From Elusimicrobiales bacterium (lineage in GTDB: Bacteria > Elusimicrobiota > Elusimicrobia > Elusimicrobiales > UBA9959): 64,000 nucleotides of DNA. Under the pieces are notes generated by a model. That model made no database searches. It was not told the DNA's origin and worked only from the letters and a program-made list of their open reading frames with translations. Position 1 is the first letter of the stretch. Each line of letters begins with the position of its first letter. The stretch covers positions 9,209 to 73,208 of the forward strand of contig JBAYJD010000008.1 in NCBI GenBank assembly GCA_041665305.1, read 5' to 3'. The position numbers and the translations under genes were made by a program. Positions 44,282-61,998 of the stretch are shown here, one piece after another.

Positions 44282-44300
44282 CTGCCATAAAAATTGCTCC
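44282..44300 (+). promoter_or_regulatory. variant -24/-12 element, copy 1 (upstream of the sigma-54-like gene)
   Basis: CTGCCATAAAAATTGCTCC, i.e. TGCCAT-N5-TTGCT with the same spacing as TGGCAC-N5-TTGCW. Lies 39 nt before the ATG at 44339. Confidence 0.6.
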
Positions 44301-44338
44301 ATTTTCGCATAACGGCTATAATATGCGAGGGTGAGGCT

Positions 44339-45397
44339 ATGAGCAAATTCCATAAATTCGGTTTCAACCATTCCGCAAGAACTAAAGCGGCGGCTATGGG
44401 CGCTATGAAGCTGGCGCAGATGTCCGAAATGTCGGAAGGCGAATTTGAAAGCTTTCTGAAGAAGATCGAAGATAACCGTTTTTTTAAATTGCTTAAAGCA
44501 TCCGGCGCCGTCAGCCTGGCGGAATTCCCGAATGCGCGTTATGCCGCAAAAAAATACGCCGGCTACGGGCTTAAACTGTCCTCCGGAGGTCTGCCGGAAC
44601 TAGCCGACGGCAAAGGCGATCTGGTCGGCCTGATACAGGGTATAGGCCAGGAAAAATTTGAAACCTGCTTCCTGAAAGACGCGGCCATGAGTGACGTAGA
44701 GCGGGCAGAGGAATGCGACATAACCGTCAAAGACGCCGCCCGCCTGCGTGATTTCGTCAACCGCGCGTTTATACAGGCTGAATTTGAAAGCGCGCCCGAA
44801 GCTCCTGTGTCGGAAGTGTTCAGTGTCGTGGCCGGCATAGAGCTTGAAAACGGCAAGCCTCTCCTGGCGTTCTTTCACCGGGAAATCTGGAAAGGCTGTT
44901 ATAAAGTGGACGGGGAAAAACTTTCAGAAGCGTTGAAAGGCCTCCCCGCCTCTGAACAAACCGCCGTGGAAAAGCTTGTAAGGCGTATGGAACTGGCGGA
45001 CAAGCGAAAATCCACGCTTTACCGCGCGCTGGAAATAGTTATGGAGCGGCAAACCGAGTACCTGATAACCGGAGAGCCTGTGCGCAGGGCGCCGTTGCCG
45101 CAGAAAGTTCTGGCAGCGGAACTTGAAGTCCATCCCAGCGTTCTTAACCGGCTTATCTCAAATAAATCCATACAGATGCCTTGGGGCACCGAAGCGCCTA
45201 TGTCGGTGCTGCTGCCCAGCTCTAAAGCCATAAATTTAGAGCGGCTATACGCCATAGCCGTTGAAAATCCTGGTATGAACGACACTGAGTTGCGCGCCGA
45301 GCTTAAAATCCGCCACGGCGTAGAATTATCCCGCCAGTCCATAGTGCAATACCGCAAAGATTTATCATTGTCCAGGAATACTTCCAGCACGCTGTAA
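44339..45397 (+). CDS. short divergent sigma-54 (RpoN)-like factor
   Basis: The C-terminal half aligns by eye with RpoN. Pre-HTH region KRKSTLYRALEIVMERQTEYL. HTH LPQKVLAAELEVHPSVLNRLISNKSIQMPWG (compare MHESTISRVT..KY..TP.G). RpoN-box-like SRQSIVQYRKDL (compare ARRTVAKYR). N-terminus MKLAQMSEMSEGEFESFLKKIEDN resembles region I. About 352 aa against the usual ~450-500. Confidence 0.65.
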   Translation: MSKFHKFGFNHSARTKAAAMGAMKLAQMSEMSEGEFESFLKKIEDNRFFKLLKASGAVSLAEFPNARYAAKKYAGYGLKLSSGGLPELADGKGDLVGLIQGIGQEKFETCFLKDAAMSDVERAEECDITVKDAARLRDFVNRAFIQAEFESAPEAPVSEVFSVVAGIELENGKPLLAFFHREIWKGCYKVDGEKLSEALKGLPASEQTAVEKLVRRMELADKRKSTLYRALEIVMERQTEYLITGEPVRRAPLPQKVLAAELEVHPSVLNRLISNKSIQMPWGTEAPMSVLLPSSKAINLERLYAIAVENPGMNDTELRAELKIRHGVELSRQSIVQYRKDLSLSRNTSSTL

Positions 45398-45412
45398 AAC
45401 CCACTGTTGGGT

Positions 45413-45445
45413 TTCAAAATGAAAGCATTTATCTCAAAATGAGAT
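45413..45445. promoter_or_regulatory. enhancer-like repeat pair upstream of the lanthipeptide operon
   Basis: TCAAAATGA at 45414 and 45434 (20-bp phasing), ~100 bp upstream of the -24/-12 element at 45532. Confidence 0.5.
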
Positions 45446-45531
45446 GATGTTTGCTTCTTTTCTACTCCCCTGCCTCCGCAGATTTCCTGATTTCCCCAAT
45501 AGAAACGCATAAAATCGTCCAGTACATCCAT

Positions 45532-45550
45532 CTGCCATGAAAATTGCTCC
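45532..45550 (+). promoter_or_regulatory. variant -24/-12 element, copy 2
   Basis: CTGCCATGAAAATTGCTCC. Lies 46 nt before the lanA1 ATG. Confidence 0.6.
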
Positions 45551-45595: not shown

Positions 45596-45688
45596 ATGAC
45601 TAAAGTACTTGAACTGCAGAAACTGGAAACCGGATCAGAGGGCGAGACCCGCTTGGGCAGTTGGATCAGCAACAGCTGCGGGCAATAG
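45596..45688 (+). CDS. class III lanthipeptide precursor (30 aa), absent from the ORF track
   Basis: MTKVLELQKLETGSEGETRLGSWISNSCGQ. RBS aaggag. Leader VLELQ motif. Core S-x-x-S-x-x-C. Confidence 0.8.
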   Translation: MTKVLELQKLETGSEGETRLGSWISNSCGQ

Positions 45689-45724
45689 TGAGTGTGCCGA
45701 TATTAAACAATAGGAGAAAATAAA

Positions 45725-45826
45725 ATGAACACGATACTTGAGTTGCAGAAACTGGAAGTAAAGTCGGAAAACGAGACTCGCGGGGGAAGCTGGATCAGCA
45801 ACTGCTGCGGCGGGCAGAACGAATGA
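45725..45826 (+). CDS. class III lanthipeptide precursor (33 aa), absent from the ORF track
   Basis: MNTILELQKLEVKSENETRGGSWISNCCGGQNE. RBS aggag. Leader ILELQ motif. Core SWISNCC. Confidence 0.8.
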   Translation: MNTILELQKLEVKSENETRGGSWISNCCGGQNE

Positions 45827-45889: not shown

Positions 45890-48556
45890 GTGGGTAATGA
45901 TATGAATAGCGCAAACAACTTGAATTACTACCTGTTCGCAGACAAACGGTTCTATGAGCCCATGGATTATTGCGTGGTAAATGAGGGCGATTATTTTGAT
46001 TTCGTCCGAAGCCAGGCTGATGCGGAATGGAAGTTTGTCAGAAGCGGTATCTGGATAAACTGTATATACCTTAAACATACGATGCCTCTTCAGGGCTGGA
46101 AAATACATTTGTCGGCGACTCATTCGGATTCTGAAGGCATTTTCAGCGCGGCGGCAGAGTTTCTTATGGCGAACAAGGTGACTTTTAAGTTCCTGTTAGA
46201 CAAAAAAACATTGGCGATAACCAATTCAAAAGGCTGGTCTCGCGGCGCTTCCGGGAAATTTATGACGGTGTATCCGACGGATCCGGAGCACTGCAAGTGG
46301 CTGCTGGAAAAACTGCATTCACTGACGGCGGATTTTTGCGGCCCGTATATCCTCTCTGATATGCGTTATAAAGACAGCAAAGTCCTGTACTACAGATATG
46401 GCGGATTCAGGCCGAATTTACGGCTTGATGTGAATGGGAAACGTATCCCGGTGCTGGTTTCCCCTGATGGAAAAGAGGAGGCCGATGTGCGGCCGCCGTA
46501 TTACCGTCTCCCCGGATGGGTGGATGAGATATTCCCGAAGAAGAATACAAATGAGTCTGGTGGCGGATTGAATAACGGGAGATATGCAGTTGAGAGATCT
46601 CTGCATTTCTCCAATACAGGCGGGATATATATCGCCTATGACAATATCGGGAAAAAAAGAGTTGTGCTGAAAGAGGCGCGTGCGCATGTCAACGCGTTCG
46701 CGGAAAATGTGGACGCCGCCAGAATGCTTAAGAGGGAGTATGATATCCTGAAAAAAGTCGGGAACTGCGGCATCGCGCCGGAGCCGGTTGAATTATTCAG
46801 GGAATGGGAGCACCTTTTCCTGGCGGAAGAATATCTGGAGGGTTATATCACGCTTCACGCTTTCGCCGCGCAGAACAGTATTCTGCTGGAGGCGCGCCCT
46901 ACCGAAGAGAAGGTTAAATCCTACCTGGAAAAATATATCGCAATTTTCAGAAAACTCGCGGGAATTATTGAGGCCCTTCATTCCCGGAATATCATATTCG
47001 GGGATTTTTCGGTCAATAATGTCCTGGTCAATCCCGCCACGCTGGATATAAAAATTATCGACCTGGAAGGGGCGCTTGTGGAGGGCGAGGAGGAAGCTTA
47101 TAAACTTTTTACACGCGGGTTTGCCGCCGTCGAGCAGGTCAAGGGGGCGGCGCCTACGCGGGAAAGCGATTATTACGCATTCGGCGCGATAATGCTGTAT
47201 ATGCTGACGCATATAAACGGGATTCTGGATTTAAAGCCTGATGCCGGAACTGAAGCATTGCAGATGGTGGGCCGGGATTTTGGCATACCTGTAAAGTTGA
47301 GAAGGATTATAAATACCCTCATGCACTCCGATCCCGCGAAGCGGCGGGGCCCGGGTGTTTTGCGCGATCAGAAGCAGGAAACTGCTTTAAGGAAGACATG
47401 CGCGGTCAGATTGTCCGCAGCTGCTCCCCGGTTGTCCAGGAAGTACATTACTGATACCGTGCGGTCGGCATGCAGCTTTATTGAATCGAGCGCGGACTAC
47501 GCCAGGAAAGACAGGCTCTTTCCCGCAGACCCGGAAATTTTTGAAACGAATCCGCTCAGTCTTGCGCATGGGGCCGTAGGGGTTCTTTATACATTATCAA
47601 AACTCGGACGCAAGCCTGCTCCCGAAATGCTGCAATGGGTGCGCCAGCATGAAATTTCCGGCAAAAATTGTCCGCCCGGCTTATATCCGGGAATGTCCGG
47701 CATAGCCTGGGGACTGCTTGAGCTTGGCGATAAGGCTGGCGCCGAGGCTGTGTTCGGTAAAACATTCAATTCCCCGCTTTTAGCTGTTTCTTCATCGCTG
47801 TATACCGGCCTGGCCGGTTGGGGGATGACCAATCTTAAGTTCTGGCTGGCCACCCGCAAGGAAATTTACCTGGACAATGCCAAAAAGGCGGGGGAAACAT
47901 TGCTTGATTCCGCGCGCAACGATTCTCACGGTGCGCACTGGCCTGATCAGGCCGGCAAAGTGCCTATCGGGCTGGCGCACGGAGCGGGAGGAATAGGTCT
48001 TTTCCTGCTGTATCTTTACGCGGCCACCGGCAATCAAAAATACCGGCAAAAAGCCGTGGAGGCATTGGATCACGACATCGCTTATGCCGATGCGTTCGGA
48101 AACGGTAATATGGCCTGGGCGAAGACAGCCGGAGAGAACGGGGCGCTTTACCCTTACTGGGAATACGGCAGCGCCGGTATCGGAATTGCCTGCCTGCGCT
48201 ATTTCAGCGTGTTAAAGGAACCTAAGTACATGAAACTTGTGGAAAAGATATATGAAAGCTGCGCGACAAAATATGCGATTTTCCCAGGAAGAAATATGGG
48301 CATGGCAGGTCTGGGCGAGTTTCTGCTTGACGCTTATGCCGTGACAAAAGACGTAAAATACCTCAATAGCGCGCACAGTGTCGCAAGCGGATTCAAACGT
48401 TTTGCGATACGAAGCCCAAAAGGCGTCGCGTTCCCCGGCGACGGTCTGGCACGGATAAGTTGTGATTACGCCGCCGGGATGAGCGGGATCATACTGTTCC
48501 TCGACCGGCTGGTGTCAGGCCGGCCTGCGGATTTTATGCTTGATGAATTGCTTTAA
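45890..48556 (+). CDS. class III lanthipeptide synthetase (LanKC: lyase-kinase-cyclase)
   Basis: Central kinase-like VVLKEARAH, FGDFSVNNVLVN, IIDLEGA. C-terminal LanC-like GxxG repeats (SLAHGAVG, GMSGIAWG, GLAGWG, GLAHGAGG). The Zn-ligand positions read WEYGSAG and GRNMGMAG rather than WCxG and CHG, as expected for class III. Start is GTG 45890 or ATG 45902. Confidence 0.85.
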   Translation: MGNDMNSANNLNYYLFADKRFYEPMDYCVVNEGDYFDFVRSQADAEWKFVRSGIWINCIYLKHTMPLQGWKIHLSATHSDSEGIFSAAAEFLMANKVTFKFLLDKKTLAITNSKGWSRGASGKFMTVYPTDPEHCKWLLEKLHSLTADFCGPYILSDMRYKDSKVLYYRYGGFRPNLRLDVNGKRIPVLVSPDGKEEADVRPPYYRLPGWVDEIFPKKNTNESGGGLNNGRYAVERSLHFSNTGGIYIAYDNIGKKRVVLKEARAHVNAFAENVDAARMLKREYDILKKVGNCGIAPEPVELFREWEHLFLAEEYLEGYITLHAFAAQNSILLEARPTEEKVKSYLEKYIAIFRKLAGIIEALHSRNIIFGDFSVNNVLVNPATLDIKIIDLEGALVEGEEEAYKLFTRGFAAVEQVKGAAPTRESDYYAFGAIMLYMLTHINGILDLKPDAGTEALQMVGRDFGIPVKLRRIINTLMHSDPAKRRGPGVLRDQKQETALRKTCAVRLSAAAPRLSRKYITDTVRSACSFIESSADYARKDRLFPADPEIFETNPLSLAHGAVGVLYTLSKLGRKPAPEMLQWVRQHEISGKNCPPGLYPGMSGIAWGLLELGDKAGAEAVFGKTFNSPLLAVSSSLYTGLAGWGMTNLKFWLATRKEIYLDNAKKAGETLLDSARNDSHGAHWPDQAGKVPIGLAHGAGGIGLFLLYLYAATGNQKYRQKAVEALDHDIAYADAFGNGNMAWAKTAGENGALYPYWEYGSAGIGIACLRYFSVLKEPKYMKLVEKIYESCATKYAIFPGRNMGMAGLGEFLLDAYAVTKDVKYLNSAHSVASGFKRFAIRSPKGVAFPGDGLARISCDYAAGMSGIILFLDRLVSGRPADFMLDELL

Positions 48557-48566
48557 GGAGAATCCA

Positions 48567-50117
48567 ATGTTTAAGAATATGCGGCTTATTGTTCGGCCTT
48601 ATACAACCTCGTTTACCCTCGCATTGGCGGGCGTGGTCGCTATGGATGCGGTCATGAGCCTGCTCAATCCGCTTTTATTGAAATACATATTTGATGAGGG
48701 AGTGATAAAAAAGGATTTCAGGCTGTTTATTGTGGTTACTGTCGGGTTTATGATCCTTGCGACCTTATTCCGGTTGTTCTCTTTATGGAACAACCTTTAC
48801 GTGCAGGATCTGAAAAACAGAATACTTAAACGGCTTATAGGAAGCATGCTGGAAAGCTACTATAAAATGCCGTATATACAGGTCATGAAGAATAAAACCG
48901 GCTATTATACCTCAAGGATTTATGACGAGCCGCTGAGCGCCTCATCCACGGCGATAGATCTCGCTTTCGCGGTATGCCCGGCCGCTGTTTCGTTTCTTGT
49001 GGCGTTTGGGGTTGTTGTTTTCTTGTCGATCAAAGCCACGTTTGCGCTGGTGCTTACGGTGCCGTTCCTTATAATGCTCGCAAATAAATACCATTCCGAG
49101 ATCAAGCAGCATTCCCGCGACGAAAAAGAGGGGGAGGGCGAGTTGCGCGGCGTTATAACCGGTTCTGCGGAATCATATCGTACCGTCAACCTGTTCGGCC
49201 TGCATTCCGCGGTGCTGTCAAAAATTAACGAGAAGTTCGAAAAGTACACGACAAGTCTTAATGCCCGTGTCAGAAACAGCGCAAAACATAACACTTATGG
49301 CGCTATTTTCATGTCCTACGGCGAAATGCTGGTTATAATCGTCTGCGGATACGCGATTTTGAAAGGGGAGATGAGTTTCGGGGGATTCATGGCTTTTATG
49401 AACGCATTCTGGCTTGCCGTCGGCAATATGAGAACGCTTGTGCAGAAAATACCTGAATTCTCACGGAACTCAATGGCGTTGCATCGGTTGGCGGAGTTCG
49501 GCATGCCAGCTTCAGAAGCGGCTGGTACCGGCGGTGGAACCGGGATCGGCGCAATTACACTTGAAAACGTGGGGTTCAGCTATGGTGATAAGCAAGTATT
49601 TTCAAACCTGAGTTTCAGCGCGGGCAAAGGCGAAAAATTGCTGCTAAGCGGCAAGAACGGCTCCGGAAAATCCACGGTGGCGAATATGCTCTCCGGATTC
49701 CTCGCGCCGGATAATGGGACCGCGCGGATTCTGGGCGTTGAAAAGACCAGCGCCTGCGTCTCCCCGCATCACTTCGCGCCTGGCACATTACGCGACAACC
49801 TGAAATTCGATAGCCATACGGACGAACAGCGCCGATACCTGAATGGCGTGCTGGCGGACTTCAAGCTGACGGAAAGTCTTGATAAGAGCCCTGATGCGCT
49901 GTCCGCCGGGCAGAAGAAAAAGGCCGAGATCGCTATGGGGTTGATGAAAGACGCTGAATTGTTTCTGTTCGACGAACCTCTCGCCAACGTGGACGTGGAG
50001 AGCAAGCCGATAATAATGGAGCATATCTTTAACCGGACCAAAGATAAAATCCTGGTAGTTGTAATGCATGGGGATGATGAATTCCGTGGGCAGTTTACCA
50101 GGATGGTGAGTTTATGA
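48567..50117 (+). CDS. ABC transporter, fused permease/ATPase (peptide exporter)
   Basis: Six N-terminal TM helices. Walker A GKNGSGKST, signature LSAGQKKK, Walker B LFLFDEP. RBS aaggag. Confidence 0.85.
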   Translation: MFKNMRLIVRPYTTSFTLALAGVVAMDAVMSLLNPLLLKYIFDEGVIKKDFRLFIVVTVGFMILATLFRLFSLWNNLYVQDLKNRILKRLIGSMLESYYKMPYIQVMKNKTGYYTSRIYDEPLSASSTAIDLAFAVCPAAVSFLVAFGVVVFLSIKATFALVLTVPFLIMLANKYHSEIKQHSRDEKEGEGELRGVITGSAESYRTVNLFGLHSAVLSKINEKFEKYTTSLNARVRNSAKHNTYGAIFMSYGEMLVIIVCGYAILKGEMSFGGFMAFMNAFWLAVGNMRTLVQKIPEFSRNSMALHRLAEFGMPASEAAGTGGGTGIGAITLENVGFSYGDKQVFSNLSFSAGKGEKLLLSGKNGSGKSTVANMLSGFLAPDNGTARILGVEKTSACVSPHHFAPGTLRDNLKFDSHTDEQRRYLNGVLADFKLTESLDKSPDALSAGQKKKAEIAMGLMKDAELFLFDEPLANVDVESKPIIMEHIFNRTKDKILVVVMHGDDEFRGQFTRMVSL

Positions 50118-50126
50118 TGCGGTTTT

Positions 50127-50205
50127 CTCATTTTGAGAAAAGAGATCCCATAAGTTTTCATTGATGGGGTTTGTCAAAATGAGAGTAAGTATCTTAAAAT
50201 GAAAC
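50127..50205. promoter_or_regulatory. enhancer-like repeat array upstream of the second precursor operon
   Basis: Palindrome TCTCATTTTGAGA (50127-50139), TTTCATTGA (50157), TCAAAATGA (50174), TTAAAATGA (50194). The last two are 20 bp apart. The array ends ~87 bp before the promoter. Confidence 0.55.
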
Positions 50206-50280: not shown

Positions 50281-50299
50281 CTGCCATAAAAATTGCTCC
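50281..50299 (+). promoter_or_regulatory. variant -24/-12 element, copy 3
   Basis: CTGCCATAAAAATTGCTCC. Lies 43 nt before the ATG at 50342. Confidence 0.6.
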
Positions 50300-50341: not shown

Positions 50342-50509
50342 ATGAACGCAATGCAGATGAACCTTAACAATACGGACGAAAATAACTTCACTTCCGGGTT
50401 CAACCGTGCGCCTGAGTTGGAGGATGTGTTTATGTCTGGTTTCAACCGCGCGCCAGAGCTGGAAGAGAGTTTTACTTCCGGTTTCAATCGCGCTCCCGAA
50501 CTGGCCTAA
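50342..50509 (+). CDS. repeat-containing RiPP precursor (55 aa), absent from the ORF track
   Basis: MNAMQMNLNNTDENNF-TSGFNRAPELEDVF-MSGFNRAPELEESF-TSGFNRAPELA. RBS aaaggag. Three 14-codon units with SGFNRAPEL invariant while 8 of its 9 codons differ synonymously between units. Confidence 0.8.
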   Translation: MNAMQMNLNNTDENNFTSGFNRAPELEDVFMSGFNRAPELEESFTSGFNRAPELA

Positions 50510-52904: not shown

Positions 52905-52983
52905 GCTCATTTTGAGATAGTAGTTTTGTCTAATCTTCATTGAAAGGATTTTCAAAATGAAAATGTTTATATCAGAATGATAG
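52905..52983. promoter_or_regulatory. enhancer-like repeat array upstream of the third precursor operon
   Basis: GCTCATTTTGAGA (52905), CTTCATTGA (52935), TCAAAATGA (52952), TCAGAATGA (52972). Same order and near-identical spacing as the array at 50127-50205. Confidence 0.55.
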
Positions 52984-53069: not shown

Positions 53070-53088
53070 CTGCCATAAAAATTGCTCC
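53070..53088 (+). promoter_or_regulatory. variant -24/-12 element, copy 4
   Basis: CTGCCATAAAAATTGCTCC. Lies 40 nt before the ATG at 53128. Confidence 0.6.
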
Positions 53089-53529: not shown

Positions 53530-53730
53530 ATGACGAACAAAGATAAAGTGATTGTATCGTTCCTGGTGTCCATCGGGATATTTTCTTCCGCCCAAGCGGT
53601 TCGCTATGTTAAGACTCTTGAAATTAGTGAGAAGAACTCCATGATATCCGTGGCCAAACTATCTAATTCCGGCATAGTTCTTTGTGAAGATTCTACCAGT
53701 CGTTCCGGTTTAGATAATCATAAAGGATAA
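53530..53730 (+). CDS. small protein (66 aa) with signal-peptide-like N-terminus, translationally coupled to the radical SAM gene
   Basis: MTNKDKVIVSFLVSIGIFSSAQA... RBS aaggag. Its TAA overlaps the ATG of the next gene (TAATG). Confidence 0.55.
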   Translation: MTNKDKVIVSFLVSIGIFSSAQAVRYVKTLEISEKNSMISVAKLSNSGIVLCEDSTSRSGLDNHKG

Positions 53731-54629: not shown

Positions 54630-54636
54630 ATCGTGT

Positions 54637-55332: not shown

Positions 55333-56711
55333 TCTTTCTGCTTCTGGCCGCTTGCGGCGTTCTCTGCGGTTGCCGGAAGGCGGAACAGCGGACGGATACA
55401 TGGACAGTGTTGCTCAGTGACCTTCCCGTACGCCTGTTTGTCGCTGACGCCGGGCTTAATGGGACTTTTTACCTTTTAAAACAGACGCATGAGCCGCTTT
55501 TTAGGCAGGATGACGGGGAAATTTTTTCTTCTCGGCTTTTGGAGAAGTGGAGCAGGGATATCCGGTCTTCTGAATATCTTTTCTGTCCCGACACCTCTTT
55601 GCGTTTTGACGCAGATAACACTTTTTCAATGGCATTCTTTTATAAATATATACGGAAAACCGCTAAGGCGTTCGACCAGGGGGCGGAGGTTGAAAAACAT
55701 GGTGAATGCGTTAGGATAAAATTGGGAAGTCACTCGAATTTCCTGGCTTACCTGTCTCTTTTCGAAAACGCTCCTACTTTGAAAAGGACGGAAAAGATAG
55801 AGGTCGGACTCGGCGCTTTTTCCGTTGAAACATTGTCCGCCGAAAAGGTCGTGCTTAAAAGAAAGCAGAGAGTTTCCAATGGCTATAACGCGATAGTGTT
55901 CCACCAGTATAAGGGCGGCGGTGACCCAAATTTACAGAATAGGCAGATAAGTGATTTCAATAATATCCCATCATTCGAGATACCGGAATGGGTAAAGAAA
56001 GATTATCGGCATTTTGATAGTCCTATACTCCGGTCGATAAGCCTTATAATAAATTACCCCGATAAGGCGGTCCGGAAAGCGGTCTATAACTGTCTTAACT
56101 ATGATTCCCTTCGGCGCGCCTATGTGCCGCGGCGAAAAAACTTTTATGATATATGCAATATACTTCCCGTTGGGGTTCCCGGTGCCGAAGCCGGGCCTCC
56201 GAGGCAGGAATGCTATGGTATAGCGAGAATAAACCGTCATTTTGAATTGACATTCCTGAACCTTGCCTATAATAATGATAAAACGCTGAAGGAAGTGTTA
56301 TCGGCTTTTCATAAAAGAACGGGGATAAAGATCGTCGTCAGGACATATCCTGATAACCAGATCGATGCGGCGCTTCTTCAATCCCCACGCCGGTATAATC
56401 TGGCGATAGTGGTTATGGATGCTGTTCGTCCTAATCATGAAGCGTTCTTTGATTATTTAATCAAGAAAAACGGATACTTTGATACCGATAATCCCGCACT
56501 AACACACTTGTATGAAAAAATGTTGAAAGAACCGGATGAGGAAAAGAAAAATAGTTTAGCGAAAGTCATAGCAGAAAAGCTGGATTCCGAAGCGCTGGTT
56601 TTGCCTCTGTATCAGAATGTGGCGACTTTCTATTATCCGAGAAACATAAAAAGTATTATTCTCGGCAGAGGTTTTATCGAATATCCAGAGGTTGCGGAGT
56701 TCAGATGGTAA
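55305..56711 (+). CDS. lipoprotein, solute-binding protein family 5-like (peptide/oligomer binding)
   Basis: Lipobox-like LLAACGVLCGC. Size and LLKQTHEPLF / periplasmic-binding fold pattern. Overlaps the kinase gene start by 7 nt. Confidence 0.5.
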   Translation: MHCYHQTKLIFLLLAACGVLCGCRKAEQRTDTWTVLLSDLPVRLFVADAGLNGTFYLLKQTHEPLFRQDDGEIFSSRLLEKWSRDIRSSEYLFCPDTSLRFDADNTFSMAFFYKYIRKTAKAFDQGAEVEKHGECVRIKLGSHSNFLAYLSLFENAPTLKRTEKIEVGLGAFSVETLSAEKVVLKRKQRVSNGYNAIVFHQYKGGGDPNLQNRQISDFNNIPSFEIPEWVKKDYRHFDSPILRSISLIINYPDKAVRKAVYNCLNYDSLRRAYVPRRKNFYDICNILPVGVPGAEAGPPRQECYGIARINRHFELTFLNLAYNNDKTLKEVLSAFHKRTGIKIVVRTYPDNQIDAALLQSPRRYNLAIVVMDAVRPNHEAFFDYLIKKNGYFDTDNPALTHLYEKMLKEPDEEKKNSLAKVIAEKLDSEALVLPLYQNVATFYYPRNIKSIILGRGFIEYPEVAEFRW

Positions 56712-58864
56712 AAATTATAGGCCGGGCTTTTTCTTATAACTGGAAATACTACAGCGCGGCGGTGGCCGTGTTTGTGGTTTTCTGGCAGATGTTTTCCGTG
56801 TTCTCTGCCGTGCGCGTAGCTGATGATAATCTGCTAACCGCCATGCGGCAGAATGCGGCCTATTTTGAAAAAGCATTTCTTAAAGGTGATGTGTTTGAGA
56901 CTCAGCGCATAATGTGGCGCATAAAGAACGACAATATAAAGCACATAACATTCCACCCCACTGAGTTTAACGGCAGTAAGTGGATATTTAAAGAGGCCAT
57001 AATCGGGAATATTTACGACAGACCTCGCGCGCAGCTAACGTGCAATGTGCCTTTTATATCAAATGGCGCAGTGCTTGGCCAGCTGGAATATGTTATAGAT
57101 CTGGTGGATGTCAACGCTGTCGTCTTCGGTGAGAACTATATTTTATTTATAACCATAGTGGCTTTTTTTATGGGCCTTTTGTTTCTGTCCAATGTCGGGG
57201 CTATTAAAACTATTTTCAGCATAGAGCGCTGTGTTACAGAAACAAACGCTCTGGTCGATGCCGGTAAACACGCCGACATTCAGGATTCTATACAACGCAG
57301 CATCCAGTTGCTGCCGCAAAGTTTGCGCGATACACCATTCGCCGTGTTGATAAGCGGGTTGGCGGAAGTGCTGAAAAAAGCCTCCCGTCTTGAAAGTGAC
57401 CTTGCTGTTTCAAAAGCCACATCTGATATGGCGGTGCAAGTGGCGCATGACATTCGGTCGCCGCTGGCGGCGTTGGATACAGCGCTGAATAAAACTGATC
57501 AGCTCCCGGAACAACAGCGCATTATGGTGCGCCATGCGGTGAACCGGATACGCGATATCGCCAACAATCTCCTTGAAAAGAACCGGCAGCAGGCCAAAAC
57601 CTCTTCAGTGGCCATATCCCAGCCCACTGATGCCCGCGAAGCTCAGGAAACGCGCCTGCTTTCAAGCGCTATAGACCCGGTTATAACCGAGAAACGCCTG
57701 CAATTTGAATCAAAGCCGGGAATAAACATTGATTTTGAGCTGACAAAGGAATCTTACGGCTTGTTCGCTAAAATACAGCCGGTGGAATTCAGGCGCATAA
57801 TTTCAAATCTTGTGAATAATGCCGTTGAAGTGTTGGGCGATCAAGGCAAGGTCTCCGTAGGCTTGGGCCAGGATGCCGGGAATATTGTTTTAACTGTCGC
57901 CGATAACGGCAAAGGCATTCCGGCTGAAATACTGGCGAAACTCGGCCAGAGGGGAGAAACGCACGGGAAGGCTGGCGGATCGGGTCTGGGGCTTTTCCAT
58001 GCAAGAACAACAGTGGAAAGTTTGGGTGGCAGTCTTGCGATAGCTTCCGAAGTAGGCAAAGGCACGACGATTACAATAAAATTGCCCAGGGCGGAGGCTC
58101 CAAATAATTTTGTGCCTGTGCTTGAACTTGTTCCCGGCCGGCCCGTGGTAGTCTTGGATGATGACGCTACAATACACCAGATCTGGGATGGCCGGTTTGA
58201 GTCCGCCAGGGTTCAGGAGCGCAATATCGAAGTAATTCATTTCAGCGAGCCGGATAAACTGCGCGAATGGGTTAAAACCAACACGGCAAAGGCCGAAAAA
58301 GCGGTTTATCTGTTTGACTATGAGTTGATCGGTTATAAAGAAACGGGACTTAGCCTTGCCGAAGAGCTGGGGATATGCGGCACGACAATATCTGTGACCA
58401 GCCGTTACGACGAGAAACGCATAATTGATGAGTGCAAGCGTCTTAAAGTGCGGATGATCCCCAAGGGGCTGGCAAGCCTTGTGCCGATAGCCATCCAAAA
58501 GCCTGATGCAAAACCGGAAGCAGTGCCTCCCTCCGGCCAGGTAGACGCCGTTTTAGTTGATGATGATAAATTGGCCCGCATGAGTTGGGAAATGGTCGCC
58601 AAGGCAAAAGGCGTAAACCTGGTTGTCTTCGACAATCCGGGCGATTTCCTCGCCCGTATAGAGGAATTCCCCAAAGAGACGCCTGTTTATCTTGATTCCG
58701 AGCTGGACGACGACCAGGAAAACGGCGTTAAAGGCCAGAATATAGCCGTGGATCTGCACAACAAAGGCTATGCCGATATCACGCTTGAGACCGGCCACAT
58801 GCCGGAAGATTTCGCCCACTTGCCCTGGCTTAAAGTGATAGACAAAACTCCGCCCTGGAGTTAA
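56705..58864 (+). CDS. membrane sensor histidine kinase with two C-terminal receiver-like domains
   Basis: TM, ~130-aa periplasmic loop, TM. H-box VAHDIRSPLAAL. NLVNNAVEV, DNGKGIP, GGSGLGLFHA. Then VVVLDDD...LFDYEL and AVLVDDD...YLDSEL modules. Confidence 0.85.
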   Translation: MVKIIGRAFSYNWKYYSAAVAVFVVFWQMFSVFSAVRVADDNLLTAMRQNAAYFEKAFLKGDVFETQRIMWRIKNDNIKHITFHPTEFNGSKWIFKEAIIGNIYDRPRAQLTCNVPFISNGAVLGQLEYVIDLVDVNAVVFGENYILFITIVAFFMGLLFLSNVGAIKTIFSIERCVTETNALVDAGKHADIQDSIQRSIQLLPQSLRDTPFAVLISGLAEVLKKASRLESDLAVSKATSDMAVQVAHDIRSPLAALDTALNKTDQLPEQQRIMVRHAVNRIRDIANNLLEKNRQQAKTSSVAISQPTDAREAQETRLLSSAIDPVITEKRLQFESKPGINIDFELTKESYGLFAKIQPVEFRRIISNLVNNAVEVLGDQGKVSVGLGQDAGNIVLTVADNGKGIPAEILAKLGQRGETHGKAGGSGLGLFHARTTVESLGGSLAIASEVGKGTTITIKLPRAEAPNNFVPVLELVPGRPVVVLDDDATIHQIWDGRFESARVQERNIEVIHFSEPDKLREWVKTNTAKAEKAVYLFDYELIGYKETGLSLAEELGICGTTISVTSRYDEKRIIDECKRLKVRMIPKGLASLVPIAIQKPDAKPEAVPPSGQVDAVLVDDDKLARMSWEMVAKAKGVNLVVFDNPGDFLARIEEFPKETPVYLDSELDDDQENGVKGQNIAVDLHNKGYADITLETGHMPEDFAHLPWLKVIDKTPPWS

Positions 58865-59034
58865 CCCTTTAAATCCTTCTCAAGCCGGGACAGGCAATCC
58901 ATGATATCCTGCCCCGCTTCTTTCATAAGGGCAAGCAATTCCAGCTTTTTCTCAAGCGTGCAGGTCTTGAACATTTCCGCGATTGTTTTAAGGCTCGTGC
59001 ATTGCGAGCGTATCTTGTGAAGCGGCTTTTCCAT
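58861..59034 (-). CDS. small helical protein, possible Hpt-like phosphorelay component (speculative)
   Basis: MEKPLHKIRSQCTSLKTIAEMF... has a His in an HxxxxS-like context resembling Hpt helices. Sits between the kinase and the regulator. Start ambiguous (59034-59079). Confidence 0.3.
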   Translation of the reverse strand: MEKPLHKIRSQCTSLKTIAEMFKTCTLEKKLELLALMKEAGQDIMDCLSRLEKDLKG

Positions 59035-59038
59035 TTTG

Positions 59039-60400
59039 TTATTTTCTTCCATCCGGTTCATCGCCCTTGTTCGGTCCAAATTTCTTTAACCTGGCATAAA
59101 GCAGGTTGGTGGAGATCTTAAGATTGGCCATTACCTTGCTTTTGTTGCCGTTGTTCTCCTGCATATTGCGGCGGATTATCTCGTAGGTGAACAGTTCGGA
59201 CGCGGCGTCCAGGCCGTTTTTTACGGCGTATTTATACTGCGCGTTCGTAAGGAACCCGCCTGGCGGCAGGGGGTTAAGTTCCTGCGAAAGGTGCTTACGG
59301 ATAGTTTCAAGCGTGACGCGGTTTCCCGTGCCTGAAACAAGCAGGTCCACCAGCTTCTTCAATTCCCGGATATTGCCCGGCCATTCGTATTGGAGCATGA
59401 AAGTTCTGGCGTCCGGCGCAAATGATAATTGCCGTGCCCCGCTCGTGAATTGCCGTATGAGGGGGAAAATATCGCAGGAGCGTTCGCACAACGGCTTAAG
59501 GTTGACGGTCAGGCCGTGTATGCGCTGAAAGAAGTCCAGCCGCAGTTTCCCTTGCGTTATAAGCGCCTTAAGGTCTTCTAGCGTGGCGCTGATTATCCTG
59601 AAATCGGAACGCTCCGGTTTGTCGGAGCCCAGCGGGTAAAACGATTTCTCCTCAATGGCTTTAAGCAGCTTGGTCTGCATATTAAGGCTCATAGAACCTA
59701 TTTCATCCAAAAACAATGTGCCGTTGTTGGCCTGCAAGAGTCGGCCCTTTCTGTTTTCATTTGCCCCGGTGAATGCGCCTTTCCTGTAGCCGAACAATTC
59801 GGCTTCCATCAATTCCTCGGTATAGGCCGAGCAATTCATGGCGACGAATTCGCCGGAACGTCCGGAATATTTGTGAATTATCCGGGCCAGGCAGGTTTTT
59901 CCTGTGCCGGTTGGCCCAAGGATAAGGATAGGGGAGCCGGAGGCCGCGTATTTAAGCGCTTCGGTGACATTGGCGCGCGTTGCCGGGTCTTCGGTTATAA
60001 ATTCCTCGGAGAAGACTTTATTGAGGTTCCCGCTTTTGCCGCGCTGCAGGTATTTGGCGATAACCGCGCTGATATTGGCTTTCTCGTTGCCTTTGATATA
60101 GAAATCGTCGCAGCCGAGTTCATAGGCCTTATTTATGATATCGTCGGAATCCGAGCTTGTCATGACCACGGAGTAAAACCCTTTTGATCTGGCGTCCGCG
60201 ATAAGTTTTAAACCCGAATAATCATCATCAAGCCCCAGCATCAGGTCCAGGAAGCATAGGTCATAAGAACCGCCGGCCAGTTTTTTCCTGGCGGTCTTTG
60301 TATCTTTTGCGAAGTCCACGGCATGGCCTGTCAACTGGGCCGCCATGACCGCCTGCGCCGGATTTTCGTCTTCAACCACCAGAATCTTCAGTTTGTCCAT
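59039..60400 (-). CDS. sigma-54-dependent response regulator (NtrC-type enhancer-binding protein)
   Basis: Receiver ILVVEDE...CFLDLML. AAA+ Walker A GPTGTGKT, intact GAFTGA loop, Walker B LFLDEIG, EWPGNIREL. C-terminal Fis-type HTH KSKVMANLKISTNLLYARLKKFG. Confidence 0.9.
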   Translation of the reverse strand: MDKLKILVVEDENPAQAVMAAQLTGHAVDFAKDTKTARKKLAGGSYDLCFLDLMLGLDDDYSGLKLIADARSKGFYSVVMTSSDSDDIINKAYELGCDDFYIKGNEKANISAVIAKYLQRGKSGNLNKVFSEEFITEDPATRANVTEALKYAASGSPILILGPTGTGKTCLARIIHKYSGRSGEFVAMNCSAYTEELMEAELFGYRKGAFTGANENRKGRLLQANNGTLFLDEIGSMSLNMQTKLLKAIEEKSFYPLGSDKPERSDFRIISATLEDLKALITQGKLRLDFFQRIHGLTVNLKPLCERSCDIFPLIRQFTSGARQLSFAPDARTFMLQYEWPGNIRELKKLVDLLVSGTGNRVTLETIRKHLSQELNPLPPGGFLTNAQYKYAVKNGLDAASELFTYEIIRRNMQENNGNKSKVMANLKISTNLLYARLKKFGPNKGDEPDGRK

Positions 60401-60615
60401 TAAACCCCTCCAAAATGAGAGAAACCACTTTCAAAATGCAATATTTAACCCCAAAAATATTATACAGAACTTTGCCGTAAGGATACATCGTTATATTGTT
60501 ATTTATGTGCGCGGTCTGCGGGATCTTCCGGGAGTTAATGCGGGAGTTGAAAATGAGCTCGGGAGCAATTTCAAAACTGGTGGCTAAAGACAGGCTTCAA
60601 GCCCAAGCCCTGTTA

Positions 60616-60637
60616 GGAAGATAGGAAGCAGCGTCCC
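60616..60637. repeat. left arm of the perfect 22-bp inverted repeat flanking the protease gene
   Basis: ggaagataggaagcagcgtccc. The exact reverse complement is at 62030-62051. Confidence 0.9.
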
Positions 60638-60729
60638 CTGCCCCCCTTTTTTTTACAAAAGCCTTGACACAGATTAACAAAAGTTTTACGATTCCCTTCT
60701 AAGGTCATAGTTCCGGTCCGGAGGAGAAA

Positions 60730-61941
60730 ATGAAACGAGTATTCGTACTGGCGTCGGGGCTCATCACCGCCGCCGCCGTCTGCGCGCAGGCGTCCCAGAA
60801 GATAATAAGCTTTGAGACCGCCTACCGTGGCGCTATAGACAAGAATATAGAAGAAGTAGGTGGGAAGGTAACGCGCAAATTCACCCTGATAGACTCCGTG
60901 GTTGCGATATTCCCCGACAATGCGAAGACCGACGCGATTATGTCCATTAAGGGCGTGACCGCCGTTTACGAGGATAAATACAGGAAATGGCTGAACGAAG
61001 CGCCAGTTTCATTGAGTGCGGTCCAGTTCCCTTCGGTAAAGGAAATTATCGCCAAGGCCCGCTCCGGCGAAGGCTGGAACAGGCCCGCACCGTTCGCGAC
61101 CAGACCGTCCGAAACCGAGATACCTTGGGGCGTTAAGCGCGTTAACGCTTCCGCTGCCTGGGGAACATTGACCGGCAAAGGCGTCAAAGTCTGTATCATA
61201 GACACCGGCGTGGACGGCAATCATCCCGACTTGGCGCCTAATTATAAGGGCGGTTACAATGCCGTGGTCTCTACCGAGCCTCCGACCGACGAACACGGCC
61301 ACGGCACACACGTCGCCGGCACCATAGCCGCCGCGTTGAACGATAAGGGCGTGGTCGGAGTGGCCCCCAACGCCGAAATATACGGGGTCAAGGTCCTTGG
61401 CAAGGACGGCTACGGTCAGGATTCCTGGGTGGCCGCAGGAGTGGAATGGGCCATCATGAATCACATGAACGTGACCAACATGAGCCTCGGTGACAAGGAA
61501 GAGTCCGTCCCGCTGAAGCAAATGATGGAAAAAGCCGACCAGGCCGGGATAACCCAGGTTGTGGCGGCCGGAAACTTGATGACATTCTGGGGCACCTGCC
61601 CGGTCATGTATCCCGCCAAGTACGACGTGGCCATCGCGATCTCCGCCTCAGATTCATCCGACAAGATAGCGTCTTTCTCCTGCCGTGGACCCGAAGTGGA
61701 CCTGATAGCGCCCGGCGCCAGGATTAACTCCACTAAACCCGGCGGCGGCTACCAAACGATGGACGGGACCTCGATGGCCTGTCCTCATGTGGCGGGCCTG
61801 GCTGCGCTGGCGGTGAACGCCGGTGCCAAAACCCCGGCCGAAGTGCGCGCGGCCTTGGTCAAGGCGGCCTCTCCTCTCGCCGGCCTGAGGCCCGAGGAAG
61901 AGGGCGCGGGCCTGGTGAATGCGGCCAAACTGCTGAAGTAA
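60730..61941 (+). CDS. secreted subtilisin-like serine protease (peptidase S8)
   Basis: Signal peptide. Propeptide-like N-terminus. Catalytic triad contexts IDTGVD, HGTHVAG, GTSMACPHVAG. Confidence 0.9.
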   Translation: MKRVFVLASGLITAAAVCAQASQKIISFETAYRGAIDKNIEEVGGKVTRKFTLIDSVVAIFPDNAKTDAIMSIKGVTAVYEDKYRKWLNEAPVSLSAVQFPSVKEIIAKARSGEGWNRPAPFATRPSETEIPWGVKRVNASAAWGTLTGKGVKVCIIDTGVDGNHPDLAPNYKGGYNAVVSTEPPTDEHGHGTHVAGTIAAALNDKGVVGVAPNAEIYGVKVLGKDGYGQDSWVAAGVEWAIMNHMNVTNMSLGDKEESVPLKQMMEKADQAGITQVVAAGNLMTFWGTCPVMYPAKYDVAIAISASDSSDKIASFSCRGPEVDLIAPGARINSTKPGGGYQTMDGTSMACPHVAGLAALAVNAGAKTPAEVRAALVKAASPLAGLRPEEEGAGLVNAAKLLK

Positions 61942-61960
61942 GTTTAAAGTCTCACGAACG

Positions 61961-61998
61961 AAAAAGCCTCTGTGACGAAAGTCCAGAGGCTTTTTTAT
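61961..61998 (+). terminator. rho-independent terminator
   Basis: agcctctg / cagaggct stem followed by tttttt, 20 nt after the protease stop. Confidence 0.8.

What the first reader, a model, noticed from the sequence alone, without database searches (positions are those of the whole stretch)
44282..61998. Candidate undescribed system: a multi-RiPP island wired to its own sigma-54-like factor, enhancer-binding regulator and sensor module
Within 17.7 kb there are several linked components.
- (a) A truncated, divergent RpoN-like gene.
- (b) Three operons, each opening with unannotated small peptide genes followed by a peptide-modifying enzyme (LanKC, rSAM/SPASM, small rSAM plus GNAT). The first two also carry an exporter (ABC, MFS).
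- (c) A lipoprotein binding protein translationally overlapped with a hybrid histidine kinase, a small helical protein, and an NtrC-type regulator with an intact GAFTGA loop.
- (d) A secreted S8 protease that could remove leaders.

The sigma gene and all three precursor operons carry the same 19-nt -24/-12-like element. The three precursor operons also have the same upstream repeat arrays. The simplest reading is a self-contained regulon: an external signal, possibly one of the peptides sensed through the binding protein, activates the bEBP. The bEBP then fires a private sigma-54 paralog on private promoters, including the sigma gene itself (positive feedback). I am not aware of RiPP clusters described as controlled by a dedicated sigma-54 paralog, but I cannot verify novelty without searches.
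Basis: partly seen in the sequence, partly recalled or inferred. Interest (0 to 1): 0.9.

Follow-up and report, generated by a model that had tools for sequence, protein, structure and literature searches.

The report
Rewired sigma-54 factor driving peptide island
An uncultured Elusimicrobia bacterium carries a short sigma-54-type transcription factor whose DNA-reading arginine has changed to glutamine, and the promoters of three neighbouring peptide-natural-product operons have changed to match; published work states that this arginine never varies in nature.

Summary
The element CTGCCAT-N5-TTGCT occurs exactly four times in 64 kb, against 0.32 expected. The sites precede a 352-aa sigma-54-like gene and three RiPP operons: class III lanthipeptide, rSAM/SPASM repeat peptide, and small rSAM plus GNAT-fold protein. 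The three peptide promoters also carry paired TCAAAATGA enhancer-like sites 107-118 bp upstream.

Comparison with about 85 related loci, all Elusimicrobiota, changes the picture.
- The short sigma is a phylum-wide family. It is nearly always linked to one NtrC-type activator and a small His-containing helical protein, and often to a binding-protein/kinase operon.
- Most members have the RpoN box LSRRS and canonical GG promoters (93 of 95 sites).
- The window's clade has LSRQS, where Q aligns with E. coli R456, and only GC promoters (9 of 9, plus 4 metagenomic).
- A second clade, with the first Arg replaced by L/A/S, has NG promoters.
- Two MAGs carry both RR and RQ sigmas, each followed by a promoter of its own type.

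This mirrors engineered orthogonal sigma-54 R456 mutants.

Not supported: the S8 protease as a member, and positive autoregulation.

Untested: whether a canonical rpoN coexists.

Verdict: a new variant of sigma-54/bEBP control, of high interest.

The parts
44282..44300 (+). sigma-54-type promoter element (GC variant) in front of the sigma-like gene. It overlaps a sigma-70-like -35 TTGCTC (44294-44299), a 17-nt spacer and -10 TATAAT (44317-44322).
   Evidence: The orthologous site in the RR-type relative L011 reads CGGCAT.
44339..45397 (+). Short sigma-54-family factor, 352 aa, with RpoN box LSRQSIVQYR. R332 and Q333 correspond to E. coli R455 and R456.
   Evidence: Pfam Sigma54_DBD E=7e-11. 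AF2 pLDDT 83.5; the top 27 Foldseek PDB hits are all sigma-54. Profile alignment to PDB sigma-54 and hhalign give 99.8% probability.
45414..45442 (+). Enhancer-like pair TCAAAATGA-N11-TCAAAATGA, 118 bp upstream of the lanthipeptide promoter.
45532..45550 (+). GC-variant -24/-12 promoter of the lanthipeptide operon.
45596..45826 (+). Two class III lanthipeptide precursors, at 45596-45688 and 45725-45826. Each has an (V/I)LELQKLE leader motif and an S-x2-S-x2-C core. A 12-bp stem-loop follows at about 45839-45872.
   Evidence: Hairpin z = -4.45.
45902..50117 (+). LanKC class III lanthionine synthetase (45902-48556) and ABC exporter (48567-50117).
50128..50202 (+). Enhancer-like sites: an inverted copy at 50128-50136 and a direct pair at 50174 and 50194.
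50281..50299 (+). GC-variant promoter of the rSAM/SPASM operon.
50342..50509 (+). 55-aa precursor with three SGFNRAPEL(E) repeats, followed by a GC-rich hairpin.
50567..52877 (+). Radical SAM/SPASM peptide maturase (50567-51703) and MFS exporter (51684-52877).
   Evidence: The nearest NCBIfam models are anaerobic sulfatase maturase, DynA and cyclophane-forming maturases, all below their cutoffs.
52907..52980 (+). Enhancer-like sites: an inverted copy at 52907-52915 and a direct pair at 52952 and 52972.
53070..53088 (+). GC-variant promoter of the third (core) operon.
53128..53304 (+). 58-aa protein with a hydrophobic N-terminus and a conserved ...FYAEN/K C-terminus. It always lies upstream of the 66-aa/rSAM pair in relatives. 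A hairpin follows at 53441-53470.
53530..55332 (+). 66-aa protein, 299-aa radical SAM enzyme (weakly YydG-like) and a GNAT-fold protein of 213-231 aa. The genes overlap or abut.
   Evidence: The 66-aa protein and the 299-aa rSAM co-occur in about 14 related loci; the GNAT-fold protein was found in 6.
55305..58864 (+). Lipoprotein-like solute-binding protein (55305-56711) overlapping a membrane histidine kinase (56705-58864). The kinase has receiver-like C-terminal extensions.
   Evidence: Relatives show a clear SBP_bac_5 next to the kinase.
58861..59079 (-). Small helical protein with an invariant His in an H-box-like motif; candidate phosphotransfer protein. It is conserved downstream of the bEBP.
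   Evidence: (42 loci). Similarity to a kinase DHp domain is only suggestive.
59039..60400 (-). NtrC-type enhancer-binding protein: receiver domain, AAA+ domain with GAFTGA, and C-terminal HTH.
   Evidence: An ortholog lies next to the sigma gene in 64 of 86 loci.
60410..60439 (+). Enhancer-like pair abutting the bEBP start. It is followed by a conserved ATATTATACAGAA block and a decayed promoter-like sequence, a relic of the ancestral bEBP-sigma intergenic region.

Best explanation
The island is a dedicated sigma-54-type regulon of an Elusimicrobiota bacterium.

**The sigma factor.** The 352-aa protein is a short, phylum-restricted sigma-54 homolog. I infer that it binds core RNA polymerase and reads the -24/-12 elements in front of the three peptide operons.

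**Activation (inferred).** These promoters would be silent until the NtrC-type activator opens them. The activator would bind the paired TCAAAATGA sites about 110 bp upstream. It would be switched on by phosphorylation through a relay: lipoprotein binding protein, then membrane kinase with receiver-like domains, then small His protein, then the activator's receiver domain.

**Outputs.** A class III lanthipeptide with an ABC exporter. A repeat peptide modified by an rSAM/SPASM enzyme, with an MFS exporter. And the core operon itself, which encodes a small secreted-type peptide, a 66-aa protein, a small rSAM, a GNAT-fold protein, the binding protein and the kinase. The sensor therefore sits inside its own regulon.

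**The special feature.** In this clade the second arginine of the RpoN box, the equivalent of E. coli R456, has become glutamine. Every promoter of the regulon has changed the second G of the -24 GG to C. I infer that this insulates the circuit from sister sigma factors of the same family, which keep RR and GG promoters and coexist with RQ sigmas in at least two related MAGs.

**Shown versus inferred.** Shown by sequence comparison: the anatomy, the synteny and the covariation. Inferred: core binding, activator dependence, the phosphorelay, orthogonality, and the nature of the signal.
For: **1. The protein is a sigma-54 homolog.**
- Pfam DBD hit.
- AF2 model whose top 27 PDB matches are all sigma-54 chains.
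- Profile and hhalign alignment of LSR[R/Q]S..QYR to ARRTVAKYR.

**2. The module is conserved.**
- All 79 GTDB loci are Elusimicrobiota.
- The bEBP is adjacent in 64 of 86 loci and the small His protein in 42.
- The rSAM/binding-protein/kinase operon appears in part or whole in 12-25 loci, depending on the gene.

**3. The promoters are real.**
- 113 unique sites against 3.9 in shuffles.
- 80 of 83 sites lie on the sigma strand.
- They precede the sigma gene, Cys-rich peptides and secreted proteins.

**4. The RpoN box co-varies with the -24 dinucleotide.**
- RR gives GG at 93 of 95 sites.
- RQ gives GC at 9 of 9 sites, plus 4 metagenomic sites.
- LR, AR and SR give TG, AG or CG and never GG.
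- The two derived clades are independent on the tree.
- An orthologous sigma-gene promoter reads CGGCAT in the RR relative L011 and TGCCAT in the window.

**5. Paralogs of both types coexist.** MAGs CAZYFL01 and DMES01 hold both RQ and RR paralogs. In CAZYFL01 and at both RQ copies of DMES01, a promoter of the sigma's own type follows the gene; the RR copy of DMES01 (L060) has a GG promoter about 1 kb upstream instead.

**6. There is an engineered precedent.** E. coli R456 substitutions re-specify exactly the second G of the -24 GG (PMC12096077).

**7. The surrounding sequence fits a regulated promoter.**
- Enhancer-like pairs lie at typical distances.
- The GAFTGA loop is intact.
- Precursor-proximal hairpins are present.
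- There are no GG-type or canonical sigma-54 promoters elsewhere in the 64 kb.
Against: - There is no experimental or transcript data.
- The N-terminal half shows no significant sequence match to canonical region I or the core-binding domain. Structural matches have a TM-score of only about 0.4. Core binding and activator contact are therefore unproven.
- Each covariation rests on one evolutionary event.
- MAG co-residence could reflect binning errors.
- The engineered study did not list R456Q among the variants that lost GG recognition. RQ may therefore not be fully orthogonal.
- The sigma gene's own site lacks enhancers and overlaps a sigma-70-like promoter.
- The His-protein/kinase similarity is not significant.
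- Whether the genome has a canonical rpoN is unknown.
Confidence: 0.7

Rival explanations
1. This is simply the lineage's only, housekeeping sigma-54, and the motif is that lineage's consensus. Nothing is private. The island merely happens to hold several of its promoters.
For: - No canonical rpoN was seen in 1.38 Mb of related sequence.
- Elusimicrobium minutum lacks sigma-54 altogether (PMC3162934).
- Most family members use an essentially canonical TGGCAT-N5-TTGCT.
- JGI annotates some members as sigma-54.
Against: - Several MAGs hold two or three paralogs, including RR plus RQ pairs with matching promoters.
- Synteny is with a single dedicated bEBP, not with lptB/hpf/ptsN.
- Promoters cluster around the module and precede peptides and secreted proteins only.
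- There are four sites within 9 kb and none in the other 55 kb of the window, which includes an exopolysaccharide cluster.
Confidence: 0.2
2. The sigma-54-like protein is no longer a sigma factor. It is a sequence-specific DNA-binding regulator derived from one, and another sigma transcribes the peptide genes.
For: - The N-terminal half is not recognisably region I or a core-binding domain by sequence.
- It scores far below the NCBIfam rpoN cutoffs: 42 bits against 277.
- Its site overlaps a sigma-70-like promoter at its own gene.
Against: - The predicted structure matches sigma-54 chains over 280-440 aligned columns.
- It is constantly linked to an activator with an intact GAFTGA loop, whose only known target is sigma-54.
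- The element has -24/-12 geometry, enhancers at about -110 and a fixed distance to start codons.
- No good sigma-70 promoters sit at the peptide genes.
Confidence: 0.07
3. The identical elements are copies of one recently duplicated promoter cassette, so their identity reflects recent duplication and not selection. The G-to-C change would then be a neutral founder mutation.
For: The three peptide promoters share about 250 bp of block-wise similarity. The RQ clade is young, with at least 86% identity among members.
Against: - Similarity is confined to functional blocks, with diverged sequence between them.
- The sigma promoter shares only the 19-nt core.
- The same GC element precedes different cargo genes in at least six other contigs.
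- The change coincides with R-to-Q at the contacting residue.
- An independent clade shows the analogous pairing at the other Arg and the other G.
Confidence: 0.03

Closest known systems
Engineered orthogonal sigma-54 R456 variants (Liu et al. 2025, NAR, PMC12096077)
   Same: A single substitution at the second RpoN-box arginine re-specifies the second G of the -24 GG. R456Y/M/W/F prefer GC, H prefers GA and L prefers GT. The resulting sigma/promoter pairs are insulated from each other and still need a bEBP.
   Different: Those variants are laboratory mutants of E. coli sigma-54. The authors state that no residue other than R has been found at this site in nature. Here the residue is Q in a natural, divergent 352-aa homolog. 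A second natural clade varies the first arginine.
Cereibacter (Rhodobacter) sphaeroides RpoN1-4 with cognate bEBPs
   Same: Several sigma-54 paralogs in one genome, each working with its own activator on its own gene set (PMC11999139).
   Different: Those are full-length RpoNs. [quoted passage not shown] Their targets are nif, flagellar and xrpA genes, not RiPP clusters.
Canonical RpoN/NtrC-type two-component control (NtrBC, ZraSR, PrsK/PrsR of PEP-CTERM systems, LuxO)
   Same: A receiver-AAA+-HTH activator with GAFTGA, upstream enhancer sites and a -24/-12 promoter. The window's bEBP scores against the models for these families, but below every curated cutoff.
   Different: The sigma is 352 aa rather than about 480 and lacks recognisable AID and CBD Pfam domains. 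The promoter is conserved far beyond -24/-12, with an A5 spacer and a -10 to +6 block. The regulon is compact and co-located.
Autoinduced lantibiotic clusters (NisRK and SpaRK type) and peptide quorum sensing
   Same: RiPP operons sit next to a sensor kinase/regulator pair. The sensor genes lie inside the induced regulon.
   Different: Those use OmpR-type regulators and sigma-70 promoters. Here a sigma-54-type factor, a bEBP, a binding protein and a probable phosphorelay are used. No inducer has been identified.
YydFGHIJ epipeptide system of Bacillus subtilis
   Same: A small peptide gene lies next to a small radical SAM enzyme. The window's 299-aa rSAM gives a weak YydG-family match of 50 bits against a cutoff of 300.
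   Different: The score is far below the cutoff. The partners also differ: a 66-aa protein, a GNAT-fold protein, a binding protein and a kinase.

Membership tests
Sigma-54 (RpoN) family | C-terminal DNA-binding domain with an HTH and an RpoN box (ARRTVAKYR) | tested here: met
   Pfam Sigma54_DBD at 42.6 bits against a cutoff of 22.8. The profile aligns to PDB sigma-54 at E=4e-21. hhalign gives 99.8% probability. The box reads SRQSIVQYR, with the second Arg replaced by Gln.
Sigma-54 (RpoN) family | N-terminal region I (activator-interacting domain) | tested here: inconclusive
   No Pfam AID hit. There is only a weak, non-significant alignment of the family N-terminus to E. coli residues 1-62. 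The conserved helices at residues 13-55 are predicted with high confidence.
Sigma-54 (RpoN) family | Core-binding domain | tested here: inconclusive
   No Pfam CBD hit. Foldseek aligns 280-440 columns to sigma-54 chains, but the TM-score is about 0.4. Scores are far below the NCBIfam rpoN cutoffs.
Sigma-54 (RpoN) family | Recognises a -24 GG / -12 GC promoter with fixed spacing | tested here: not met
   The spacing and the -12 TTGC are kept. In the window, however, the -24 reads GC at all 4 sites. Relatives with an RR box do have GG. Binding itself was not tested.
Sigma-54 (RpoN) family | Transcription strictly dependent on a bEBP ATPase | not testable with these tools
   Only indirect evidence: a linked bEBP with GAFTGA, and enhancer-like sites.
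NtrC-type bacterial enhancer-binding protein | Receiver domain, Sigma54_activat AAA+ domain with a GAFTGA loop, and a C-terminal DNA-binding domain | tested here: met
   Response_reg E=2e-10; Sigma54_activat E=7e-57; AAA_lid_14. GAFTGA is present in the sequence.
Class III lanthipeptide cluster | LanKC synthetase (lyase, kinase and cyclase domains) with precursors that carry an ILELQ-type leader and an S-x2-S-x2-5-C core | tested here: met
   NCBIfam lanthi_synth_III at 747 bits against a cutoff of 575. RamC_N, Pkinase and LANC_like domains. Precursors read VLELQKLE...SWISNSC and ILELQKLE...SWISNCC. The leader and core motif definitions come from my own knowledge.
Cyclophane-forming (three-residue) rSAM/SPASM RiPPs | rSAM/SPASM maturase with a precursor that carries repeated aromatic-x-x motifs | tested here: inconclusive
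   Radical_SAM plus SPASM domains. The precursor has three SGFNRAPEL repeats. The best NCBIfam hits are sulfatase maturase, DynA, GrrM and XyeB, all below their cutoffs.
His-Asp-His-Asp phosphorelay | Hybrid kinase with a receiver domain, plus a separate His-phosphotransfer protein | tested here: inconclusive
   Pfam finds no Response_reg domain in the kinase. There is a weak NahK/ErcS hybrid-kinase match. The small protein has an invariant His in HD(L/I)RSKC. Its similarity to DHp domains is not significant.

The most novel reading that the evidence does not exclude
Elusimicrobiota carry a previously undescribed family of short sigma-54 factors in which the two DNA-reading arginines of the RpoN box have diversified in nature: RR, RQ, and LR/AR/SR/CR. 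The -24 dinucleotide of their promoters has changed in step: GG, GC, NG. This would give naturally orthogonal sigma-54 circuits that can coexist in one cell. Each would be wired to RiPP or secreted-protein cargo through a shared activator/phosphorelay, possibly as a peptide-autoinduced, quorum-sensing-like loop. It would overturn the published claim that R456 and the -24 GG are invariant, and it would provide ready-made orthogonal parts.
Probability: 0.55. Interest if true: 0.9.

Novelty: new variant of a known kind. Interest (0 to 1): 0.82.

Why it matters
Sigma-54 promoter recognition is textbook-invariant: GG at -24, read by the RpoN-box arginines. A 2025 engineering paper states that no residue other than Arg occurs naturally at R456.

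A natural R-to-Q variant with a matched G-to-C change in all its promoters would show that sigma-54 specificity does evolve. So would a second clade that varies the other arginine and the other G. Together they would reveal how paralogous enhancer-dependent circuits become insulated. They would also supply natural orthogonal sigma/promoter/activator sets for synthetic biology.

The finding also defines a phylum-wide regulatory module in uncultured Elusimicrobiota. The module appears to govern RiPP and secreted-protein production, and its promoters can be used to find new precursor peptides. If confirmed, it would also be the first sigma-54 paralog shown to be dedicated to RiPP clusters.

Tried and rejected
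1. **Canonical rpoN in the same genomes.** I could not test this. The single genome-contig scan went on retrieving family loci. tblastn with E. coli RpoN against 1.38 Mb of related loci found only the short family, but that sample is local.

2. **Metagenome scan for TGCCATRAAAATTGCTCC.** Only L097 (two sites), L147 and L175 are real.

3. **The small helical protein as a recognised HPt or DHp domain.** There are no Pfam or NCBIfam hits. The PDB profile search was not significant; the best relevant hit was the ZraS DHp at E=0.8.

4. **The S8 protease as leader peptidase of the system.** Rejected as a core part.

5. **A sigma-70 -35/-10 overlap at sigma-gene promoters.** It holds in the satellite clade but not at main-clade promoters, where TATAAT lies only 8-10 nt after TTGCTC.

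6. **Rfam and tRNA scans of the window.** Nothing found.

7. **Literature searches.** Sigma-54 with RiPP, lanthipeptide or Elusimicrobia turned up no description of such a system.

Full report
**1. Observation**

CTGCCAT-N5-TTGCT occurs four times in the 64-kb window, at 44282, 45532, 50281 and 53070, all on the + strand. The expectation is 0.32, and no shuffle out of 100 reached four. Three copies share the full 19 nt CTGCCATAAAAATTGCTCC. Canonical TGGCAC-N5-TTGC is not enriched: 3 one-mismatch hits against 4.9 expected.

Each site ends 39-46 nt before a start codon. The downstream genes are:
- a 352-aa sigma-like gene;
- two 30-33-aa peptides;
- a 55-aa peptide with three SGFNRAPEL repeats;
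- a 58-aa protein with a hydrophobic N-terminus.

The three peptide promoters share further blocks. They carry pairs of TCAAAATGA spaced 20 bp apart, lying 107-118 bp upstream of the -24 element. Two of them have an inverted copy further upstream. The sigma gene's promoter shares only the 19-nt core.

**2. Genes**

Pfam, NCBIfam and public gene calls for the same contig give the following.
- The sigma-like protein has a Sigma54_DBD hit only.
- The LanKC enzyme scores above the NCBIfam class III cutoff and is followed by an ABC exporter.
- There is an rSAM/SPASM maturase plus an MFS exporter.
- The next operon is tightly overlapping. It encodes a 66-aa protein, a 299-aa rSAM (weakly YydG-like), and a protein of 213-231 aa.
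- That last protein has no family hit. Its AF2 model (pLDDT 78) matches GNAT, FemX and MprF-type acyltransferase folds.
- The same operon continues with a binding protein that has a lipobox-like N-terminus, and a membrane histidine kinase.
- On the other strand lie an NtrC-type activator with an intact GAFTGA loop and a 66-72-aa helical protein.
- Beyond these lies a secreted S8 protease.

The lanthipeptide precursors carry the (I/V)LELQ leader and the S-x2-S-x2-C core typical of class III. That motif knowledge is my own. Every precursor gene is followed by a stable stem-loop before the enzyme gene.

So components (a) to (c) of the finding are confirmed. The GNAT call is supported by fold.

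**3. The sigma-like protein**

It is not a truncated gene. It belongs to a conserved family.
- Close homologs number in the hundreds. All are about 350 aa, and every one that carries an organism name is from Elusimicrobia.
- The exhaustive search found 302 cluster representatives at E<1e-10, nearly all 340-390 aa.
- The two distant members that carry names are also Elusimicrobiota.
- The AF2 model (pLDDT 83.5) has sigma-54 chains from RNAP complexes as its best 27 PDB matches.
- Profile searches align its C-terminal 135-195 residues to sigma-54 with high confidence.

The N-terminal half shows no significant sequence similarity to region I or to the core-binding domain. There is only a weak region-I-like alignment. 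Those two membership features remain inconclusive.

The alignment places the family motif LSRRSIAQYR on the canonical RpoN box ARRTVAKYR. The window protein reads LSRQSIVQYR, so Q333 occupies the position of E. coli R456.

**4. Related loci**

I retrieved 79 loci from GTDB species genomes. All are Elusimicrobiota MAGs.

tblastn with the window's proteins gave these counts.

| Component | Loci with a homolog (of 86) |
|---|---|
| Activator ortholog next to the sigma gene | 64 |
| Small helical protein downstream of the activator | 42 |
| Histidine kinase | 25 |
| 66-aa protein and 299-aa rSAM | 14 each |
| Binding protein | 12 |
| GNAT-fold protein | 6 |
| LanKC | 4 |
| S8 protease | 3 |

In the closer clades the activator and sigma genes are divergent neighbours. 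In distant clades the order is activator, small protein, sigma, in one operon with outward-facing promoters on both sides.

Cargo varies between loci. Examples are six tandem 48-aa Cys-rich peptides, each with its own promoter. Others include further rSAM clusters, lanthipeptides and several families of secreted proteins.

**5. Covariation: the key result**

I detected promoters with a pattern that ignores the -24 dinucleotide: NN-CA[TC], an A/T-rich five-base spacer, then TTG[AC]T. This gave 113 unique sites against 3.9 in shuffles. Nearly all lie on the sigma strand.

| RpoN box | Loci | -24 dinucleotide |
|---|---|---|
| RR | 49 loci | GG at 93 of 95 sites |
| RQ | window, L005/6/9 (two copies), L007, L008, L147 | GC at 9 of 9 sites, plus 4 metagenomic sites; never GG |
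| LR, AR, SR | L075, L076, L078-L081, L083 | TG, AG or CG; never GG |
| CR | L069, L071 (L068: no promoter found) | AG or GG |

- On a neighbour-joining tree the RQ clade and the XR clade are separate, derived groups nested among RR proteins.
- An orthologous site upstream of the sigma gene reads CGGCAT in the RR relative L011 and TGCCAT in the window.
- A Fisher test on sites gives p of about 1e-11. The honest count, however, is two independent evolutionary events, each involving many promoters.
- The pattern matches the known structure-function picture. R455 and R456 hydrogen-bond the -24 bases, and engineered R456 substitutions change preference at exactly the second G: GC for Y/M/W/F, GA for H, GT for L. 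Those substitutions give mutually orthogonal pairs (PMC12096077).
- The authors of that paper state that no residue other than R has been found at this site in nature. The window contradicts that statement.

**6. Paralogs and privacy**

Several MAGs hold more than one family member.
- CAZYFL01 has an RQ copy (L007) and an RR copy (L011).
- DMES01 has two RQ copies (L009) and an RR copy (L060).
- CAIPTO01 has an activator-linked copy (L049) and a satellite copy (L010).

In CAZYFL01, and at both RQ copies of DMES01, each sigma gene is followed by a promoter of its own type. L060, the RR copy of DMES01, instead has a GG promoter about 1 kb upstream of the gene.

The window's sigma belongs to the satellite subgroup that heads RiPP operons. 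The intergenic region next to the window's activator still holds three things: an enhancer pair, a conserved ATATTATACAGAA block and a decayed promoter-like sequence. This marks the place where main-clade genomes have their sigma gene.

These facts support a dedicated, insulated circuit. They do not prove it, because MAG binning can err.

I could not test whether a canonical full-length rpoN coexists. E. minutum is reported to lack sigma-54 and its activators (PMC3162934). No canonical rpoN occurs in the 1.38 Mb sampled, where all 67 GAFTGA proteins are of the module type.

**7.

- The S8 protease has only a sigma-70-like promoter and no enhancer or -24/-12 element. It is also not conserved with the module.
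- Positive feedback on the sigma gene is doubtful, for three reasons. The window's sigma promoter has no enhancer sites. It overlaps TTGCTC-N17-TATAAT, which is conserved in the satellite clade. And the -24 half is decaying in the closest relatives: TGCCGT in L008 and L147, TGGGTT in L007. Basal sigma-70 expression, possibly with occlusion by the sigma-54-type holoenzyme, fits better.
- In main-clade relatives the shared activator-sigma intergenic region does contain enhancer-like sites.
- The phosphorelay is an inference. It rests on an invariant His in an H-box-like motif, without statistical support.
- The idea that the 58-aa peptide/rSAM/GNAT product is the signal sensed by the binding protein rests only on conserved operon linkage.

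**8. Comparison and novelty**

The mechanism class, a sigma-54-type factor with an enhancer-binding activator and a two-component input, is known. Dedicated RpoN paralogs with cognate activators are known in Cereibacter sphaeroides, where specificity rests on the -11 position.

Four things appear to be new.
- A short, phylum-restricted sigma-54 family.
- Natural re-specification of the RpoN box together with the -24 dinucleotide.
- A compact regulon centred on RiPPs and secreted proteins.
- An unusually extended conserved promoter, with an A5 spacer and a -10 to +6 block.

Literature searches found no description of any of these.

I rate it a new variant of a known kind, with interest 0.82. 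Confidence in the main explanation is 0.7.

Noticed in passing
window 45549-45565, 50298-50314, 53087-53103; also L003/L004 and others: Conservation at peptide promoters runs well past the -12 element. The block CCGTAG-N-GGG-Y-GTA-R-GC, at roughly -10 to +6, and the A5 spacer are kept from the RQ clade to relatives of 65% identity. They are absent at the sigma gene's own promoter. This is unusual for sigma-54 promoters.
   Followed up: partly
window 45493-45518, 50243-50268, 53028-53055: A conserved block, ATTTCCCCAAT-GAA-N-C-N-T-AAAT, lies between the enhancer sites and the -24 element. It may be a site for a DNA-bending protein.
   Followed up: no
window 60440-60500: The bEBP-S8 intergenic region keeps an ATATTATACAGAA block shared with bEBP-sigma intergenic regions of relatives. 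It also has a decayed promoter-like TTTGCCGTAAGGATACATCG. This looks like a relic of a lost or relocated sigma gene.
   Followed up: partly
L076, L078-L081, L083, L052, L055, L061, L065, L085: Distant clades use TTGATC instead of TTGCTC at the -12 element. In the LR clade two outward-facing promoters flank a bEBP, small-protein, sigma operon.
   Followed up: partly
L003/L004 15247-17318: Six tandem 46-48-aa Cys-rich precursor genes lie ahead of an rSAM/SPASM maturase. At least five have their own enhancer pair and TGGCAT promoter; none was found for the sixth (L004 17178-17318).
   Followed up: partly
L005 9880-9960 and 480-560; L010 about 1600-1700: Some satellite sigma genes sit directly downstream of what looks like a tRNA gene or fragment on the opposite strand. 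This may be an integration or rearrangement point.
   Followed up: no
window 5645-31712: A large exopolysaccharide/O-antigen cluster. It encodes Wzy-like, Wzz/GNVR tyrosine-kinase-like, flippase, pyruvyl transferase, FrhB/FdhB-like Fe-S protein, many glycosyltransferases, DegT aminotransferase and epimerases. It contains no sigma-54-type promoter of either kind.
   Followed up: partly
window 28207-29595; L005 8406-9566: An AAA_14/DUF4143 ATPase gene is embedded in the polysaccharide cluster. A homologous type lies next to a satellite sigma gene in L005.
   Followed up: no
window 34593-43191: An SNF2/DUF3670 helicase is followed by two large PAS-GAF histidine kinases, one of them hybrid, immediately upstream of the island. 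No link to the regulon was seen.
   Followed up: no
window 62497-63021: An ORF6N-domain (KilA-N-like) protein lies just beyond the S8 gene. It hints at a mobile-element or phage-derived border of the island.
   Followed up: no
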